Shown: piece after piece, positions 6,447 to 64,000 of the stretch
Layout of the letters: the number at the start of each line of letters is the position of its first letter
Position numbering within the stretch: position 1 is the stretch's first letter
Assembly: GCA_951406725.2 (NCBI GenBank)
Contig: OX597829.1
Span: 26,040,001 to 26,104,000, forward strand
DNA: 64,000 nt
Origin: Octopus vulgaris
Taxonomy: Eukaryota
Reading direction: 5' to 3'
Notes under the pieces: generated by a model
Seen by the model: only the letters and a program-made list of their open reading frames with translations
Databases searched by the model: none
Told to the model about the DNA's origin: nothing
Position numbers and translations under genes: made by a program

Positions 6447-6464
6447 TTTTTCTATGTTTTTCAG
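6447..6464 (+). promoter_or_regulatory. 3' splice acceptor of the coding exon
   Basis: Pyrimidine tract plus CAG at the point where intron-like (ATT)n sequence switches to the open reading frame. Confidence 0.65.
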
Positions 6465-8075
6465 AGACCCGAATCGGAATTGCGGTTTGACAATAGGGCA
6501 GCACAAGGAGAGCCAACAAATAGAATAGCCGAAACTATGATTGAGAACAGTCGGAATTTCCCCTCTTCTGGAAATACTGCATTTCTCGTGCCTTCCATTT
6601 CAGCCACTCCAATGCCACCATCATTGACATCATTTTCTCAGTCACAGTCTATGACAGCACCCCTTCTAACAACACCATCTATCGATGGAGCCCTGTCCTA
6701 TTCAGACAACAAACACCACCCTTACCCTCCGATACCTCTTAGACAAAGAGACTTACCAGCTTCCTTTTGGCAGGAGCCAAACTCACAAACCAGACAACGC
6801 TGTCTTGACCACTTAGCAGCGGCTGCTGCTGGACTATCTCATACCTCTCTCCAATCTCGTTCTTCCACACTTTCAGGATCTTCTCAATTAGCATCAAATT
6901 CTTTCCTGTCTTCATCTCCAATGTCTTCCAGTAACTCTCATTTCCTTCCCTTCCTTGCACTCTATCCAGATCTTATGTTGTCCAACACTGCTTTTAATCG
7001 TTATGTGCGCCGACCCTCTCAGCTGAATCCAGCAGGAGATCTTGCATCATCAACTCCCTTGAATAGACTCAAGGGTGGAACTTTAAACAGTAGCATTGGT
7101 GATGCTGTCCAACAGAATGGAAGATTAAATCCATACAGTGCTCAAAGGACTCAGTCACGTTTCCCAATTACAGAATATCTTTACAATATGTACGGTTCTA
7201 AATATCGCTATGCAAACCCTGTTGTTTTACAGCAAACTCCACCACTTTCTGAGAAAACCTGGGATGATGTACGTATCAAAATGATTGAAGCTAATAACAG
7301 GAGTAATACTCACCACTCCACTGAAGCCAATGAGAAGTTAAACTCTAATAAAAACTCTAAACATGACGACATAGTAAACAACCCTATAAACAGCCAAATA
7401 TATTTGAAACGGAGGGCTTCTGATAACCACATCAAGTCATTGGATGACAGCGTTCTGCCATTATTGTCTTTGCAGTCATTGCAAACCTCATCCTCCTCTT
7501 CCTCTCCAACTGATAAAAATGCTACTATTAAAACAGCTGGCACTGCTCTCTCTGAGAGAGCTGCTGACTTTAGTTTGCGGTTGTCAGACTGTTATAAATC
7601 ATCAACCAAACATTCGCCCCATTCTCGCCTTTCTGATGGCATGCTCTTTGATAATTCTGTAAATGACAGTGACCAGCTGAACAATGCTCGGTGTGTCTGC
7701 TGTGATGTTCTGAAAGATTCCTGTCCAAATCAACCAAAAAGAAACAACAGTAACAGCCTTAGCCAGACCAATAATGGAACATCTGTGAGCACAGCCACAA
7801 ATGACAATGCTACTCTTGCTACCACTAATAATTCCTCAAATCCTGGTGAACTTGGCTTTCTTCCATATTTCCAGGTTTTCCCCCACCTGTGGCCACCATT
7901 TCCTCCCCCTCTACCTCCTTCAGCAAGTCTATCTTTAGCAGCAACAGCTACAGCCAGGGAAAGATATCTCCCAGATAATATATATGCCTACAGTAATCAA
8001 GAACGTAGCATCCGTTTAATGAGGCCCAGAAGCACTCTAGGAGCTCGCTACCATCCCTTTGGTGATGTTCGTTAA
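6465..8075 (+). CDS. Large coding exon of a low-complexity (Ser/Asn/Pro-rich) protein with a YAP/Yorkie/FAM181-type TEAD-binding omega-loop; FAM181-like candidate
   Basis: The only long non-repetitive, non-transposon ORF (531 codons, TAA at 8073-8075). It is preceded by a polypyrimidine tract and CAG acceptor (ttttctatgtttttcag, ending 6464), with an in-frame stop at 6444-6446. First ATG is at 6537 (aaactATGa). Motif IPLRQRDLPASFWQEP (6732-6779) resembles YAP PMRLRKLPDSFF and FAM181A PMRKRQLPASFWEEP (recalled from memory). C-terminus is RPRSTLGARYHPF. Confidence 0.85.
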   Translation, partial: RPESELRFDNRAAQGEPTNRIAETMIENSRNFPSSGNTAFLVPSISATPMPPSLTSFSQSQSMTAPLLTTPSIDGALSYSDNKHHPYPPIPLRQRDLPASFWQEPNSQTRQRCLDHLAAAAAGLSHTSLQSRSSTLSGSSQLASNSFLSSSPMSSSNSHFLPFLALYPDLMLSNTAFNRYVRRPSQLNPAGDLASSTPLNRLKGGTLNSSIGDAVQQNGRLNPYSAQRTQSRFPITEYLYNMYGSKYRYANPVVLQQTPPLSEKTWDDVRIKMIEANNRSNTHHSTEANEKLNSNKNSKHDDIVNNPINSQIYLKRRASDNHIKSLDDSVLPLLSLQSLQTSSSSSSPTDKNATIKTAGTALSERAADFSLRLSDCYKSSTKHSPHSRLSDGMLFDNSVNDSDQLNNARCVCCDVLKDSCPNQPKRNNSNSLSQTNNGTSVSTATNDNATLATTNNSSNPGELGFLPYFQVFPHLWPPFPPPLPPSASLSLAATATARERYLPDNIYAYSNQERSIRLMRPRSTLGARYHPFGDVR

Positions 8076-8139
8076 AACAATTATATTTATAAGATAACAA
8101 ATCGATATATGTGTGTAGGTGTGTGTTTGTATGGTTGCC

Positions 8140-8173
<34 letters not shown>

Positions 8174-8477
8174 TATACATTTATATATATATACACACAC
8201 ACATACATACATTATATATATATGTATGTGTGTGTGTATATATATATATGCATACATACATACATACATACATACATACACAAACACACATATGCATATA
8301 TGGTTTATTAAAACTGAATTTTTATCACATGATTTGAGTTTTAACCCACCTTCATCTTCAGGCAAGAAGGCCTCAGTCAGTAGTGTGAAACTCAAATTGC
8401 AAGTTAAAATTTAAGTTTCAATGAGCCACATACTCTACAACATATATTTAGCCCAATTCAATGTTTGTATATGTATG

Positions 8478-8827: not shown

Positions 8828-9239
8828 GTATGAGTGTATGTATGTATATTTATGTTTGTGTGTATGTACAGAGCAGGGAAGAGAATTTAGAAAAATAAAA
8901 AAAAAAAGCTGCTCCTCCCAAACAACTAAATTTTACAAATGTACCCGAAAATATGTGACAAAATTACTTCATAAATGATTAATGGAAAAACAAAAACCAT
9001 ATGAAAAAGAAAGTGAAAGTAAAAAAAAAAAAAAAAACAAGTGGGATTAAATATATCTTTTATCCAATTGGAAATATGTTTTTGGCTGCACTGTATATTT
9101 TTCATCACAAATTTGACTGACTGAATAAAGGTTTAAAGAATATGAGAGAGAAAGAGTGAGAGAGATAAGGGAGAGAGAGGGGGGAGAGAGTGGAAAACAA
9201 GAGGAGAAAAATAGTGAGCATAATAATAATAATAGTAAT

Positions 9240-26399: not shown

Positions 26400-28865
26400 A
26401 ATCGTGTTTCTTGACAGGGTGAAAATGATCAAACCTCTATAACATTTTTAAAACATTTTTCTGGAAGAAGTTGACTAACTCCAGCAATTTAACTAGGAAA
26501 GGTACATTAATGTGCCAAATTATAAAATTTTCGATAAACTCTAATTTTTGAAATGCTGGCAGCCAAACGAACTAGATCCGTATTTGATCCAGTAAAGACG
26601 TGTCATCTGACTCTGCTCTATTGACTTCTTCTCTTTGGGAATACCATACTGCCTTTCTAACGCCATCTGTAGAAATTCGCTTTCACATTTTCACTTTACT
26701 GATACCTCCAGTCAAGAAAATTTATCGACAATACAGTAGTGATTATTTATGATTTGGATTTATTCCCTCTCTTCAGAACTGTCCGTTATCAATGTGCCTT
26801 TTTTGCCATTAAATACTGACCAACGAAGCAATGAAACCTTCACGCTTGATGCAAAGCATTCTGACAAGAAGGACAAGCCGTTATCATACTTTTTGCAACT
26901 GAGCTCCTCTTTCAAAAAGTAAATACAAACATTCAACACGCTAATCCAGGAAACTAGTAAACAGGAGAATGGCGGATTGATTACATTGCTTGTTGCTAAG
27001 TCTGGGAAGTCCCACACAATTGGAGAAACATTACTTTGCCGTTATCGAAGAGGTTTTGTCAACTGTTATGCACAAAATACCCGATAACATTATGAAGATC
27101 CCACTTAGTAAAAACACAATTTCTCGAAGCATCGATGAAATGACCAACGACGTCAAACCTCAGCTCATTAATATTCTCCAGCGTTCTGAATTTTCTATAC
27201 AAGTGAATGAGTCAACTGTTGTGGACAATCAATGTTTGATGATGGTATATGTTCGGTATTTCAGCGAAGACCTTCAACCTTGTGAGGAAATACTGTTCAC
27301 AGAGAAATTGCCGCTTGATTCAAAAGGTGCGATTATTTTTCACACTCTCAAGTCTTTCCTTTTTGAACATAATATCCCACTCAGTAATATTCTTGCCTGT
27401 GCGTCTGATGGAACCCCTTCGATGATAGGAAGATATAGAGGTCTTTCATCTCTCCCAAAGCGTGAAATTCCCCACCAGATACTAACTGTTCATTGCTTGG
27501 CACACCGGCAGCATTTTGTGGCAAAAAATATGAACAGTAGATTGAATGATGCGCTATAGTTAGTTACCAAGATTGTGAACAAATTGAAGTCCAGTCCCTT
27601 GTCTGATCGAATTTTCCGTCAACTCTGTCTGAGAAATGATGAGGACCATACTAAACTCTTATACCATACCAAAGTGCGGTGGTTGTCAAAAGGAAACTGT
27701 GTTTTATGCTTTGTTCAACTATTTCATATTATCATATCTTGCTTTGAAGATGCTCTACTATTCGCTTCATTGATGGCTGCAAGGTACGATATCTTTTTTC
27801 TCTGTGATATATTCACAAAATTAAATAATTTGAATACGTTATTGCAAGGAAACAGAAAAATTCTCGTTGATGGTAAACCATTTATCACTACCTTCATTTT
27901 GTAATTGGTTTTGTATAAGACTAACATTTCAAAACGTCAATTCCATCAATTTCCAGAACTTGATTCTTTGAAAGATGAATTAGTTGATGAGGATTTAACT
28001 ACATATCGCAACTATTTGCAAGCATTGCACGATAACATGGTGGGGCGATTTCAAGATGTTATTGCGGTGAATATTCCAAATTGGTATAGCAATCCGTTTG
28101 AGGTCGATGCAGTCGATTGCGAGGGTGACGTTCAGGAAGAATTGATAGAATTACAAAATGACAATGACGCCACAATACGATATTGCCGCAATAGCAAAGA
28201 AGGTTTGCGGTACCATCAGAGTATATTGAATTCTTATCCCAGTCTGTTGAAACATCTGAAATTACTCTTGCTTGCCTTCCCTACCTCATGACTGGTTGAA
28301 TCTGGTTTTAACCATGTTGGAATATTATTTTCCCATAAAAGAATCAGACTGGATGTGATATAACGAGGAGACATGTGGCTAAAGTCGACAAGTTTGAAAC
28401 CGAATGTATCTGCACTGGCTGCATCGCACCAGACACATGGTTCTCATTAAAAAGTTTTATTCTTTTCCTTTATAATACAATCATTAATTATTTTTGCATC
28501 GGTAGTTCTAATCAATGGTTCATTTGGAGAAAATGAAAATCAGTGTAAAAGAGAGCGCAAGTTTTCAGAAGTTAATATGTCTGCATAATATAGAGTTAAT
28601 GCTAGAATTTTATGTACACTAATGGCAAAACTAAACCCACAATGTGGGATTTGTAAACAACCGCATATTTAGTCCAAACGGCACTAACAGGGCAACGAGT
28701 CTACGATATAGTGTGTATTACAAATGATACAAGGGTTCCTGGGGGATTTTGTCTTGGGGAGGTTGTGTCCGGGTTTTTTTTTTCAAAAAGGTGGGCGATG
28801 GAGCATTTTTTAGCCGATAGGTAGGCGATATTGTAATTTGGCGCGAAAAGTTTGGGAAACACTTG
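26400..28865 (+). mobile_element. hAT (Charlie/Buster-type) DNA transposon, decayed
   Basis: Contains the transposase pseudogene. Right end gtttgggaaacacttg resembles a Charlie-type TIR. The left TIR is not clearly identifiable, so the left boundary is approximate. Confidence 0.75.
26700..28450 (+). pseudogene. hAT Buster/Charlie transposase pseudogene (ZBED5/ZBED8/FAM200/SCAND3-like)
   Basis: Motifs RQYSSDYL*FGF, IPLSKNTISRSIDEM, FSIQVNEST, CASDGTPSMIG, VHCLAHRQH, LLYHTKVRWLSKG, LLAFPTS*LVESGF. In-frame stops at 27557, 27902 and 28289, with frameshifts upstream. Confidence 0.92.
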
Positions 28866-40419: not shown

Positions 40420-40983
40420 ATGTCATCTATACGAAGCACGTGAAACAAGATCTTCATTTGCGTAAAACGATGTTGAGCGTATGGTAGGGCTGGGAAGGGA
40501 TTATCCAGTACAAATTGCTTGAACGGAACCAAACGATCAACGCGGAAGTCAATATTCAACAGATGGAACGTCTCAACACGGCTATTCAAGAGAAAAAGAC
40601 CTAATCGTAAGCATGAAGTTCTTCTGCTGCACGACAACGCCCACCTTCATATCGCCAATATGACCAAGGAAGCCATTCAAATGCATGGCTGGGAAGTGCT
40701 GCCACAGCCGCCGTACTCTCCTGATTTGGCACCAACGGATTTCCTCCTCTTTCAATCTCTTTCAAATGCTATGCGCGGAGTTTCGTTCAATACTGATGCA
40801 GAATCAATTTTTCGAGTCGAAATCGGATAATTTCTACCAACGCGGTATTAAAAATCTTGTTTAACGTTGGGAAGAGGTTGTAAACAACAAGGGTGAATAC
40901 ATTATTGATTGATCAGTTGTTCTTTTTTATTTAACCTTTTAAAAAGTTTTTAAAACGGCGGGAACTTACTTGCCAACCTAATA
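40420..40983 (+). mobile_element. Mariner (Mos1/Hsmar-like) transposon 3' half with right TIR
   Basis: KTMLSVW*GWEGII, LLLHDNA and GWEVLPQPPYSPDLAPTDF. End aacttacttgccaacctaa|ta is typical of a mariner TIR plus TA. Confidence 0.88.
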
Positions 40984-62299: not shown

Positions 62300-64000
62300 A
62301 GGGACCCCTCTTTCATCTGCGTTTTGAGAATTTTGCTGCCTTTTTGTTGAGTGAGTTCGTATTTTTGTTCGTCGTTGTTTGTGTTTACTCGTGAATTGAA
62401 CAGTTGTCCGTTGTGTAACAGTAATTTTCGCCCTACGGGGCGGAAAATTCTGTGTTTAAACATTGTCATTACCTTCGAGGTAATTTTTTTGAAACATTTG
62501 TTCTCATAATTTGAGAAATGGAGTTCGACTTGGCGTCGAGGAGCGACTTTCCCGTGATGGGAAAAGGCGAACAAAAGGATACCGAAGTCAAAAAACAGTC
62601 TTTTTCGGCCGCAGTGGGCGGAACTGTAACGGATGTAGAATTTAAGATTGAACAGTTATTCGAATACCGGAACTTGGTAAAAACGGAAGGCAATGAAATT
62701 AAACTGGTACCGCCGCAAGCGAAGGTACAGGAAATAAAGGCAAAGACAGTTGTATACAAAGTTTATAGCAACAAAGAAAAAAAAATAATGGATGTCAAGA
62801 ACGAGATAGTAGAAAAGTGCTTGTCCCCGGTGTGGAACAAAATTCGCCACGTTGTTCGAGGTGCTCGCAGCGCTACCGTTGAAGCACATTTCGACTCGGC
62901 TGATGTGGCAAGAGAGGTGTCATCAATGACCTTGAAAAATGAGGATATCATGTTGCTACCTTCGTATATGGGGAAAAGAACAGCCAAACTATATGTAGAG
63001 GATATACCAAGAGGGTATGATATAATGTGGGTAGCAGCGGCAGTCCTGCACAACGTAGAGCGGGAAGTTTCAATTCTGCAGATGAGAAGGAAAGAGGAGG
63101 TGCACTGGAAAGGACAAGTGCTAGAACTCCTCGTTCAAGCAGAAAATAAGATATTAGAAAACTTACCCGATAGGGTATTCAATGAGGAGGGGACTTCAAT
63201 GAGAGTGTCAGTGGAGGGGCGCAGACCTAGGTGCTTCAAATGTGGCGAAAAGGGTCACGTCCGGTCAAACTGCATAAAAAAAAGAGAATCAACGAAGCCC
63301 CTCCTCAAAGTGCTTCAAACACTGAAAAAGAAAAGGCGGAAAAGGAACCCAAGACTGCGACAAGGAAAGGAACCGAAACGGAAGATGAAAACGAACAAAT
63401 GGAATATACACAGGTGACACACAAAAGAAAAAAAGATAACACCCTGAACTCCCCTCCCCAAACAAAGAAAAAATCAGCAAACACCGCAGAGATACATACA
63501 AAACAAATTCCCCAGCCCTACCCCCACGGCACTGTATTCATTGGAACACAGTTCGCCAAGCCCCTCCCCATAAAACAAGATTTGAAAAAATTGATAAAAA
63601 AAAATGAAAAGATTATAGCATTTGACGAGAAGAACGATAGGGTGTACAAGTATTTCAAATTTTCAAAATTTAAACTATTCAGTAAGTCTACAGACACAAA
63701 ATCAACCACTCGCTTTGCAAAAATAAAGGAAGACGAGTGGAAGGAAAAAACACTACAAGAACATTTAAAGAATAATCTTATCAGAGATGTAACGAATGAA
63801 ATACTGGAGGGTAAACTTATTATAACCCCGGCAACCACACCTACCCAGAGCCCGATGGCAACGCCGGTTAAGAGCCCTGCAGCTACGACCACAAGGGAGG
63901 AAGAAGGGGAAGCAGGCAGATTTAAACTGTCATGCTCCCTGTCCCAACCGTAAGTTTATTTATTTTTTCTCTCTCCGACAATGGCAAAGCTGGGTTGTGT
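62300..64000 (+). mobile_element. Young L1/Tx1-clade LINE, 5' part (5' UTR, ORF1, start of ORF2), running off the window
   Basis: ORF1 has a CCHC knuckle and is homologous to the remnant at 21.3-21.8 kb. After a short spacer, the ATG at 63981 (MAKLGC..) matches the start of the endonuclease (cf. VLRVCCI at 22265). The 5' boundary is approximate. Confidence 0.8.
62518..63953 (+). CDS. LINE ORF1 (gag-like, CCHC zinc knuckle), split by a -1 frame change at an A8 run
   Basis: 62518-63417 contains CFKCGEKGHVRSNC; the overlapping frame 63231-63953 continues after A8 at 63276-63283. Confidence 0.75.

What the first reader, a model, noticed from the sequence alone, without database searches (positions are those of the whole stretch)
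6732..6779. TEAD-binding omega-loop in an otherwise unrecognisable protein: candidate invertebrate FAM181-like Hippo-pathway cofactor
Seen: IPLRQRDLPASFWQEP in a mostly low-complexity ~512+ aa ORF. Known: the YAP/Yorkie omega-loop (PMRLRKLPDSFF) and the FAM181A/B motif (PMRKRQLPASFWEEP) bind TEAD. No WW domain and no FAM181 N-terminal conserved block is visible in this exon. Inference: this is a Scalloped/TEAD partner or YAP competitor, either a divergent FAM181 or a separate lophotrochozoan family that uses the same motif.
Basis: partly seen in the sequence, partly recalled or inferred. Interest (0 to 1): 0.7.

Follow-up and report, generated by a model that had tools for sequence, protein, structure and literature searches.

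The report
Loop-only TEAD cofactor candidate in octopus
This is a real, spliced octopus gene for a predicted-disordered 541-residue protein whose only catalogued part is an intact 16-residue motif of the kind that human FAM181A and YAP use to grip the growth-control transcription factor TEAD, so it likely acts as a weak TEAD partner, probably a stripped-down relative of the already known FAM181 family.

Summary
Confirmed: 6732-6779 encodes IPLRQRDLPASFWQEP, a full match to Pfam TEADIR3 (28.8 bits, cut-off 26) with every YAP hot-spot position kept or conservatively replaced. The exon equals an Octopus vulgaris protein over 535 residues. Contigs of 3 of 4 runs splice at 6465 to a leader encoding MVVVA behind an in-frame stop, so this isoform has no room for the FAM181 N-terminal block; WW, LxxLF and Vestigial motifs are absent. 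It is not otherwise featureless: a post-loop helix, a Tyr-rich block and a C-terminal RYHPF are conserved. A FAM181-like protein from a metagenome contig and a clade of short loop-bearing animal proteins also end in RYHP[FY]. Against: the nearest non-octopod relatives keep those blocks but lack the Arg89 and Ser94 equivalents. Best reading: a FAM181-related, loop-only, low-affinity TEAD cofactor outside direct Hippo-kinase control; binding untested, and no complex was modelled. Loop-only binding (FAM181A) and molluscan FAM181/PERCC1 are in print. No earlier scan note on it. New variant of a known kind; interest 0.33.

The parts
6463..6464 (+). Splice acceptor AG after a T-rich tract; phase-0 junction to an upstream exon (outside the window) that supplies MVVVA
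   Evidence: Sequence context; identical loose 5' ends at 6464 in contigs of 3 of 4 runs, from 3 studies; the leader is not in the window at up to 2 mismatches
6465..8075 (+). Last coding exon: residues 6-541 and stop of a 541-aa predicted-disordered protein (O. vulgaris CAI9734543.1; O. bimaculoides XP_052829528.1, LOC128249600)
   Evidence: covered without differences or gaps by single contigs in 3 of 4 runs; pLDDT 34.9
6732..6779 (+). TEAD interface-3 omega-loop motif, residues 95-110 (IPLRQRDLPASFWQEP)
   Evidence: Pfam PF15238 above cut-off; PDB FAM181A and YAP peptides; 0 of 200,000 shuffles; 15 of 16 identical in Argonauta
6780..6833 (+). Conserved post-loop block, residues 111-128, a predicted helix (112-126) containing CLDHLAAAAAG; partner unknown
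   Evidence: Invariant columns in alignment A1; most confident part of the model; no Pfam or PDB match
7164..7235 (+). Conserved Tyr-rich block, residues 239-262 (PITEYLYNMYGSKYRYANPVVLQQ); likely a second binding motif, partner unknown
   Evidence: Nearly invariant across 6 aligned sequences of 34-99% identity; no Pfam or PDB match
8013..8072 (+). Conserved C-terminal block ending in RYHPF (8046-8060); candidate nuclear-localisation motif
   Evidence: Invariant in A1; 1 of 200,000 shuffles place such a motif in the last 15 residues; RYHPY proposed as a nuclear-localisation element in NET and Zelda proteins

Best explanation
The exon encodes nearly all of a transcribed, 541-residue, predicted-disordered octopod protein that likely enters the nucleus, is predicted to dock weakly on TEAD/Scalloped through a single omega-loop, and is probably a FAM181-related cofactor that lacks the family's N-terminal block. 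Shown: gene, splicing, motif, conservation, absence of WW, LxxLF, VxxHF and HxRxxS. Inferred: L97/L102/F106 would fill the interface-3 pocket, R100 and S105 would make the Arg89 salt bridge and Ser94 hydrogen bonds, and W107 with R98 would cap the loop. With no interface-2 helix the contact would be in the high-micromolar range, so it would more likely tether other partners (through the post-loop helix and the Tyr-rich block) to TEAD in cells where it is abundant than displace Yorkie outright. Lacking LATS sites and WW domains it would escape direct Hippo-kinase control. The terminal RYHPF would serve nuclear import. Activation versus repression is not determined.
For: Motif above the Pfam cut-off and nearest to the solved FAM181A peptide. 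All positions named as critical in PMC7784741 are kept; Leu for Met86 and Trp for Phe96 are accepted substitutions there, and larger aromatics at 96 raise affinity. A similar helix-less Capsaspora peptide competes at human TEAD with IC50 about 107 uM; YAP, Vg and VGLL2 loops 98-157 uM. FAM181A binds at interface 3 only. Spliced transcript with in-frame stop before the start codon. Loop 15 of 16 identical in Argonauta against 75% overall. Link to FAM181: locus L012 (protein P0009) has an N-terminal block that I recognise from memory as the FAM181 block, a loop 14 of 16 identical, and a C-terminus whose last 30 residues align with the octopus ones better than 5000 of 5000 shuffles. The C-terminal motif was not part of the scan pattern, yet 21 of 22 closed frames carry RY[HRQ]P[FY] in their last 12 residues.
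Against: P0004, P0005 and P0008 (about 34% identical, unnamed sources) keep all three other blocks but have Val at Arg89 and Thr or Met at Ser94 on an ungapped reading, or a 5-residue gap, and get no Pfam hit. The loop is not uniquely conserved within octopods: 100 of 526 windows are as conserved or more. Profile comparisons with P0009 and with the short clade align the loop only; the C-terminal match has BLAST E 0.06 in the whole-protein comparison. RYHPY also occurs in unrelated regulators, so it can be convergent. The FWQEPN likeness was selected by the scan pattern. The 25 loci are about two independent lineages. L012's FAM181 label rests on recall (no Pfam model for that block).
Confidence: 0.55

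Rival explanations
1. Same TEAD-docking mechanism, but a separate origin: a lineage that gained or kept the loop independently of FAM181 (or came from PERCC1, Vestigial or Yorkie by loss of everything else).
For: No alignable sequence with the FAM181-like P0009 outside the loop and the last residues; private blocks with no match in Pfam, PDB or 1.84 billion representatives; loops occur in four known families and RYHPY in unrelated proteins.
Against: Loop plus terminal RYHPF in the same order as in P0009, with 0 of 5000 shuffles reaching the C-terminal score; loop closer to FAM181A (11 of 16) than to YAP (8 of 16).
Confidence: 0.2
2. The loop is a dispensable or secondary relic; the protein works mainly through the post-loop helix and the Tyr-rich block with another partner, and TEAD binding matters little in the animal.
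For: Relatives P0004/P0005/P0008 conserve those blocks almost perfectly while lacking the Arg89 and Ser94 equivalents; loop-only affinity is weak; no transcriptional effect could be determined for human FAM181A/B (review PMC12672301).
Against: The loop is intact to every critical residue in Octopus and Argonauta; loss of TEAD motifs in some paralogues is known in families whose other members do bind (C19orf85, VGLL1/3).
Confidence: 0.17
3. It is the canonical octopus FAM181, with the N-terminal block on a 5' exon of an isoform not seen here.
For: The exon opens with a phase-0 acceptor, so another coding exon could join in frame; contigs drop rare isoforms.
Against: The same short leader with an in-frame stop in 3 studies; three annotated octopod proteins start MVVVA; no match to the L012 block in the window (best E 2.6).
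Confidence: 0.06
4. Chance motif in a spurious open frame.
For: The frame is compositionally biased.
Against: 542 open codons in repeat-rich DNA, spliced transcripts, annotated orthologues, 0 of 200,000 shuffles.
Confidence: 0.01

Closest known systems
Human FAM181A (TEAD interface-3-only binder; PDB 6L9F; Pfam PF15238)
   Same: Omega-loop with Trp at the Phe96 position, 11 of 16 residues identical; no interface-2 helix; no WW domain.
   Different: The octopus protein lacks the conserved FAM181 N-terminal region and has private post-loop and Tyr-rich blocks; its binding is untested.
Invertebrate FAM181 (Lottia, Crassostrea, Mizuhopecten, Capitella, Lingula in PMC9710580 Fig. S5 legend; L012/P0009 here as a likely example)
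   Same: With P0009: loop 14 of 16 identical (selected by the scan pattern) and a terminal RYHPF.
   Different: P0009 has an N-terminal block and an LxxLF upstream of its loop; the octopus loop lies at residue 95 with neither.
PERCC1 (PMC9710580)
   Same: WW-less, low-complexity protein with a predicted TEAD loop, present in molluscs.
   Different: PERCC1 has interface-2 LxxLF and an N-terminal conserved region; the octopus protein has no LxxLF. PERCC1's own blocks could not be compared (figures are pictures).
YAP/TAZ/Yorkie
   Same: Loop hot-spot residues conserved, 8 of 16 identical.
   Different: No WW, no LxxLF helix, no HxRxxS LATS site.
Vestigial/VGLL2 (PMC7566471)
   Same: Loop with Trp at the Phe96 position.
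   Different: No TONDU/VxxHF motif before the loop and no Pfam Vestigial hit.

Membership tests
Pfam PF15238 TEADIR3 (omega-loop motif) | Score at or above the gathering cut-off | tested here: met
   28.8 bits against 26, 16 of 16 positions
FAM181 | Interface-3 omega-loop | tested here: met
FAM181 | Conserved N-terminal region (Nt-F) | tested here: not met
   Observed transcript starts MVVVA behind an in-frame stop; the L012 block (identified as Nt-F from memory) has no match in the window, best E 2.6. Unseen isoforms not excluded.
FAM181 | Interface-2 LxxLF upstream of the loop (FAM181B; not demonstrable in FAM181A) | tested here: not met
   No LxxLF in the protein
FAM181 | Physical binding to TEAD | not testable with these tools
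FAM181 | Descent from the FAM181 lineage (phylogeny, synteny) | tested here: inconclusive
   Only the loop and the C-terminal motif align; no genome held for synteny
YAP/TAZ/Yorkie | At least one WW domain | tested here: not met
   No Pfam WW hit; Trp at 107, 271, 481 only
YAP/TAZ/Yorkie | LxxLF helix shortly before the loop and HxRxxS LATS sites (the latter consensus recalled) | tested here: not met
Vestigial/VGLL1-3 | TONDU domain with VxxHF | tested here: not met
   No Pfam hit on the whole protein or on residues 6-93 and 108-135; only a CxxHL look-alike after the loop, with no PDB match at E<=10
PERCC1 | Interface-2 LxxLF plus loop | tested here: not met
   Loop present, LxxLF absent
PERCC1 | Nt-P and C-terminal conserved regions | not testable with these tools
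   Alignments of PMC9710580 are pictures; no PERCC1 sequence came up

The most novel reading that the evidence does not exclude
A further class of TEAD cofactor beside YAP, Vestigial, FAM181 and PERCC1: Hippo-independent proteins built only of a front omega-loop and a terminal RYHP[FY], present in octopods and in a second animal lineage (L002-L025), with a sister branch (P0004, P0005) that has switched the loop off while keeping the adjoining CLDHL helix, which could be a Vestigial-like interface-2 helix placed behind the loop instead of before it.
Probability: 0.15. Interest if true: 0.58.

Novelty: new variant of a known kind. Interest (0 to 1): 0.33.

Why it matters
TEAD output is set by which cofactor occupies its surface. 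A cofactor with the loop alone, without WW domains, LATS sites or the FAM181 N-terminal block, would give cephalopods a way to tune TEAD that bypasses the Hippo kinases, relevant to arm regeneration and growth. The natural pair of loop-intact (Octopus, Argonauta) and loop-dead relatives with otherwise shared blocks makes a clean test of what such proteins do with and without TEAD, a question still open for human FAM181A/B. The limits: loop-only binding and molluscan members of the wider family are in print, Pfam already tags this protein, and nothing is shown about function.

Tried and rejected
No whole genome is held, so paralogues, a canonical octopus FAM181 and synteny were not examined. 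The upstream exon is not in the window. Wider family: the profile search of 1.84 billion representatives returned 2 proteins, both already in the alignment; region 90-131 found none among 29 shorter candidates and 2 among 48 of similar length; proteins longer than 947 aa were not searched by that tool. Viral and prokaryote collections: 63 and 38 pattern matches, none confirmed. ESM Atlas: best feature scores 0.86 and 0.81, under the bar; a FAM181A cluster was the first structure row for residues 78-135 but at TM 0.39, under the bar, so not used. The post-loop, Tyr-rich and C-terminal blocks have no PDB or Pfam match; the idea that CLDHL is a VxxHF-type helix got no support and stays a speculation. 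No fold search was run on the low-confidence model. No complex with TEAD was modelled: no TEAD sequence came from any call, and a pass would mostly reflect likeness to the solved FAM181A and YAP complexes. No run is on record as RNA, and 1 of 4 laid runs gave nothing; neither is used as evidence. Rfam: no match in the window. Earlier scan notes: nothing relevant in 5 look-ups. Bokhovchuk 2020 is not held; Marks 2016 was not read.

Full report
Observation. Window 6732-6779 on the + strand reads IPLRQRDLPASFWQEP, inside a frame open from 6447 to 8075. Pfam gives one family for the whole frame, PF15238 TEADIR3, over all 16 profile positions at 28.8 bits against a cut-off of 26. A 67-residue piece finds three PDB sequences at E<=10: the FAM181A peptide of 6L9F (E 8.6e-4) and two YAP chains. 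A loop pattern arose in 0 of 200,000 shuffles of the protein and occurs once in the six frames of the window.

The gene. The translated exon equals Octopus vulgaris CAI9734543.1 over 535 residues and differs at 3 from O. bimaculoides XP_052829528.1 (LOC128249600); Argonauta has a 73% identical protein. All are 'uncharacterised' or 'hypothetical'. Contigs from 3 of 4 laid runs, from three studies, cover 6464 to beyond the stop without differences and share one loose 5' end exactly at the AG acceptor. Read by eye, that end encodes MVVVA, the annotated N-terminus, with an in-frame TAG starting 9 bases before the ATG. The runs are only guessed to be RNA, but a common junction at an acceptor shows spliced RNA. 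The leader exon is not in the window.

Anatomy. The model is disordered (mean pLDDT 34.9, pTM 0.18; 507 of 541 residues under 50), with its most confident part a helix at 112-126 just after the loop. There is no WW domain, LxxLF, VxxHF or HxRxxS (the LATS consensus is recalled). Alignment with three unnamed relatives of about 34% identity (P0004, P0005, P0008) shows three more conserved blocks: the post-loop block with CLDHLAAAAAG, a Tyr-rich block at 239-262, and a terminal RYHPF. None matches Pfam or PDB.

The loop. On YAP numbering the octopus has Ile84, Pro85, Leu86, Arg87, Arg89, Leu91, Pro92, Ser94, Phe95, Trp96 and Pro99. PMC7784741 (passages and section 3.5 read) names Arg89, Ser94 and Phe96 as each worth more than 3 kcal/mol, accepts Leu at 86 and Trp at 96, and reports a helix-less Capsaspora peptide at IC50 about 107 uM. 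PMC7566471 (passages) gives 98-157 uM for the isolated loops of YAP, VGLL2 and Vestigial. PMC10146773 (passages) states that FAM181A binds at interface 3 only. Binding is therefore likely but weak; this is inference from known structures, not a test. The loop is 15 of 16 identical in Argonauta, but 100 of 526 windows are as conserved.

Evidence against. P0004, P0005 and P0008 keep FWQEPN and the three other blocks yet get no Pfam hit (one search scanned P0004 and P0005); aligned with a gap they lack five loop residues, and read without a gap P0004 and P0005 have Val at position 89 and Thr or Met at 94. They would not be expected to bind through interface 3. Their organisms are unnamed, so orthology is open. 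Either a sister branch lost TEAD binding, as C19orf85 and VGLL1/3 lost motifs, or the family's core function lies elsewhere.

Family. Sequence searches give no wide family. A metagenome scan, whose pattern selected for FWQEPN, returned 25 loci out of 466 pattern matches. L012 encodes a 597-residue protein (P0009) with an N-terminal block that I recognise from memory as the FAM181 block (no tool confirmed the label), an LxxLF, a loop 14 of 16 identical to the octopus one, and a terminal RYHPF. The other 24 loci appear to form one clade; the complete ones are about 250-325 residues, with an invariant Met in the 12 aligned and the loop 44-81 residues behind it; the L012 block is not found in their contigs (best E 0.27), although a likely acceptor lies just before the Met and upstream exons may be missing. 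The C-terminus was not part of the pattern, yet 21 of 22 closed frames end in RY[HRQ]P[FY] (19 strictly RYHP[FY]); 3 frames run off the contig and L001 lacks it; the 22 fall into 14 clusters and about two independent lineages. The last 30 residues of the octopus protein align with those of P0009 better than 5000 of 5000 shuffles, and with three members of the short clade only through the five-residue motif (26-44 of 5000). Profile comparisons align the loop only. RYHPY is also a conserved C-terminal motif of NET proteins and occurs in Zelda, where nuclear localisation is proposed (passages of PMC5144077 and 10.1101/126417), so convergence is possible. On balance a FAM181-related origin with loss of the N-terminal block is the most economical reading, but the protein fails that defining feature and is not filed as a FAM181.

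Mechanism. Shown: a spliced gene, an intact loop, conserved blocks, no Hippo-control modules. Inferred: nuclear import through the terminal motif, weak docking on Scalloped at interface 3, and recruitment of unknown partners by the two private blocks, independent of LATS. Strong competition with Yorkie is less likely, given a roughly hundred-micromolar contact and no interface-2 helix. Confidence 0.55; rivals are independent origin with the same mechanism (0.2), a relic loop (0.17) and a canonical FAM181 with an unseen isoform (0.06).

What is known. PMC9710580 (main text and supplementary legends read; its alignments are pictures and could not be seen) describes PERCC1 and FAM181 in molluscs, annelids and brachiopods; octopus is not among the species abbreviations of Fig. 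1C, S1 or S5. An annelid FAM181B is named in a transcriptome study (passages of PMC10380512). A review says no effect of FAM181A/B on TEAD activity could be determined (passages of PMC12672301). The locus name had 0 occurrences in the 16 listed of 18 papers, and the octopus motif 0 in the 11 papers; searches listed no paper on such a loop-only invertebrate group. The library lacks most subscription papers, and the original FAM181-TEAD paper was not held, so absence from print is not established.

Verdict. Real gene, real motif, plausible TEAD partner; a new architectural variant of a known kind of cofactor, already tagged automatically by Pfam. The useful additions are the splice evidence against a hidden N-terminal block, the shared loop-plus-RYHP[FY] layout, and the loop-dead relatives. 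Interest 0.33.

Noticed in passing
proteins P0004, P0005, P0008 (residues 55-71): Closest non-octopod relatives keep FWQEPN, the post-loop helix, the Tyr-rich block and RYHPF but have lost the Arg89 and Ser94 equivalents of the loop: a natural loss-of-binding comparison.
   Followed up: partly
L002-L011 and L013-L025, e.g. L003:1577-2437: An unnamed animal clade of 250-325-residue proteins with an intact omega-loop near the start, a conserved ELAASAAVVAAYLRWRA segment and a terminal RYHPY; no FAM181-like N-terminal block in the contigs. A likely splice acceptor lies 1-15 bases before the invariant Met.
   Followed up: partly
L012:242-2032: Intronless-looking 597-residue protein with a FAM181-like N-terminal block (label recalled), LxxLF, omega-loop and terminal RYHPF; unnamed in the protein collection.
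   Followed up: partly
L001:1133-1555: Member of the short clade whose frame stops about 60 residues after the start of the match, with no downstream blocks in any + frame; possibly broken or mis-assembled.
   Followed up: partly
window 26981-28291 (+): Three consecutive in-frame open stretches separated by stops that look from memory like a decayed hAT/ZBED-type transposase; no Pfam hit at E<=0.01.
   Followed up: partly
window 40477-40830 (+): Transposase fragment, Pfam DDE_3 at E 2.9e-5, below the cut-off; mariner-like by recall.
   Followed up: partly
window 62515-63953 (+): Two overlapping open frames, the first with a zinc knuckle (Pfam zf-CCHC above cut-off): probably the gag-like first frame of a retroelement.
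   Followed up: partly
window 8307-8312 and 8894-8899 (+): First ATTAAA and AATAAA after the stop codon, candidate polyadenylation signals; the laid stretch ended at 8110, so untested.
   Followed up: no
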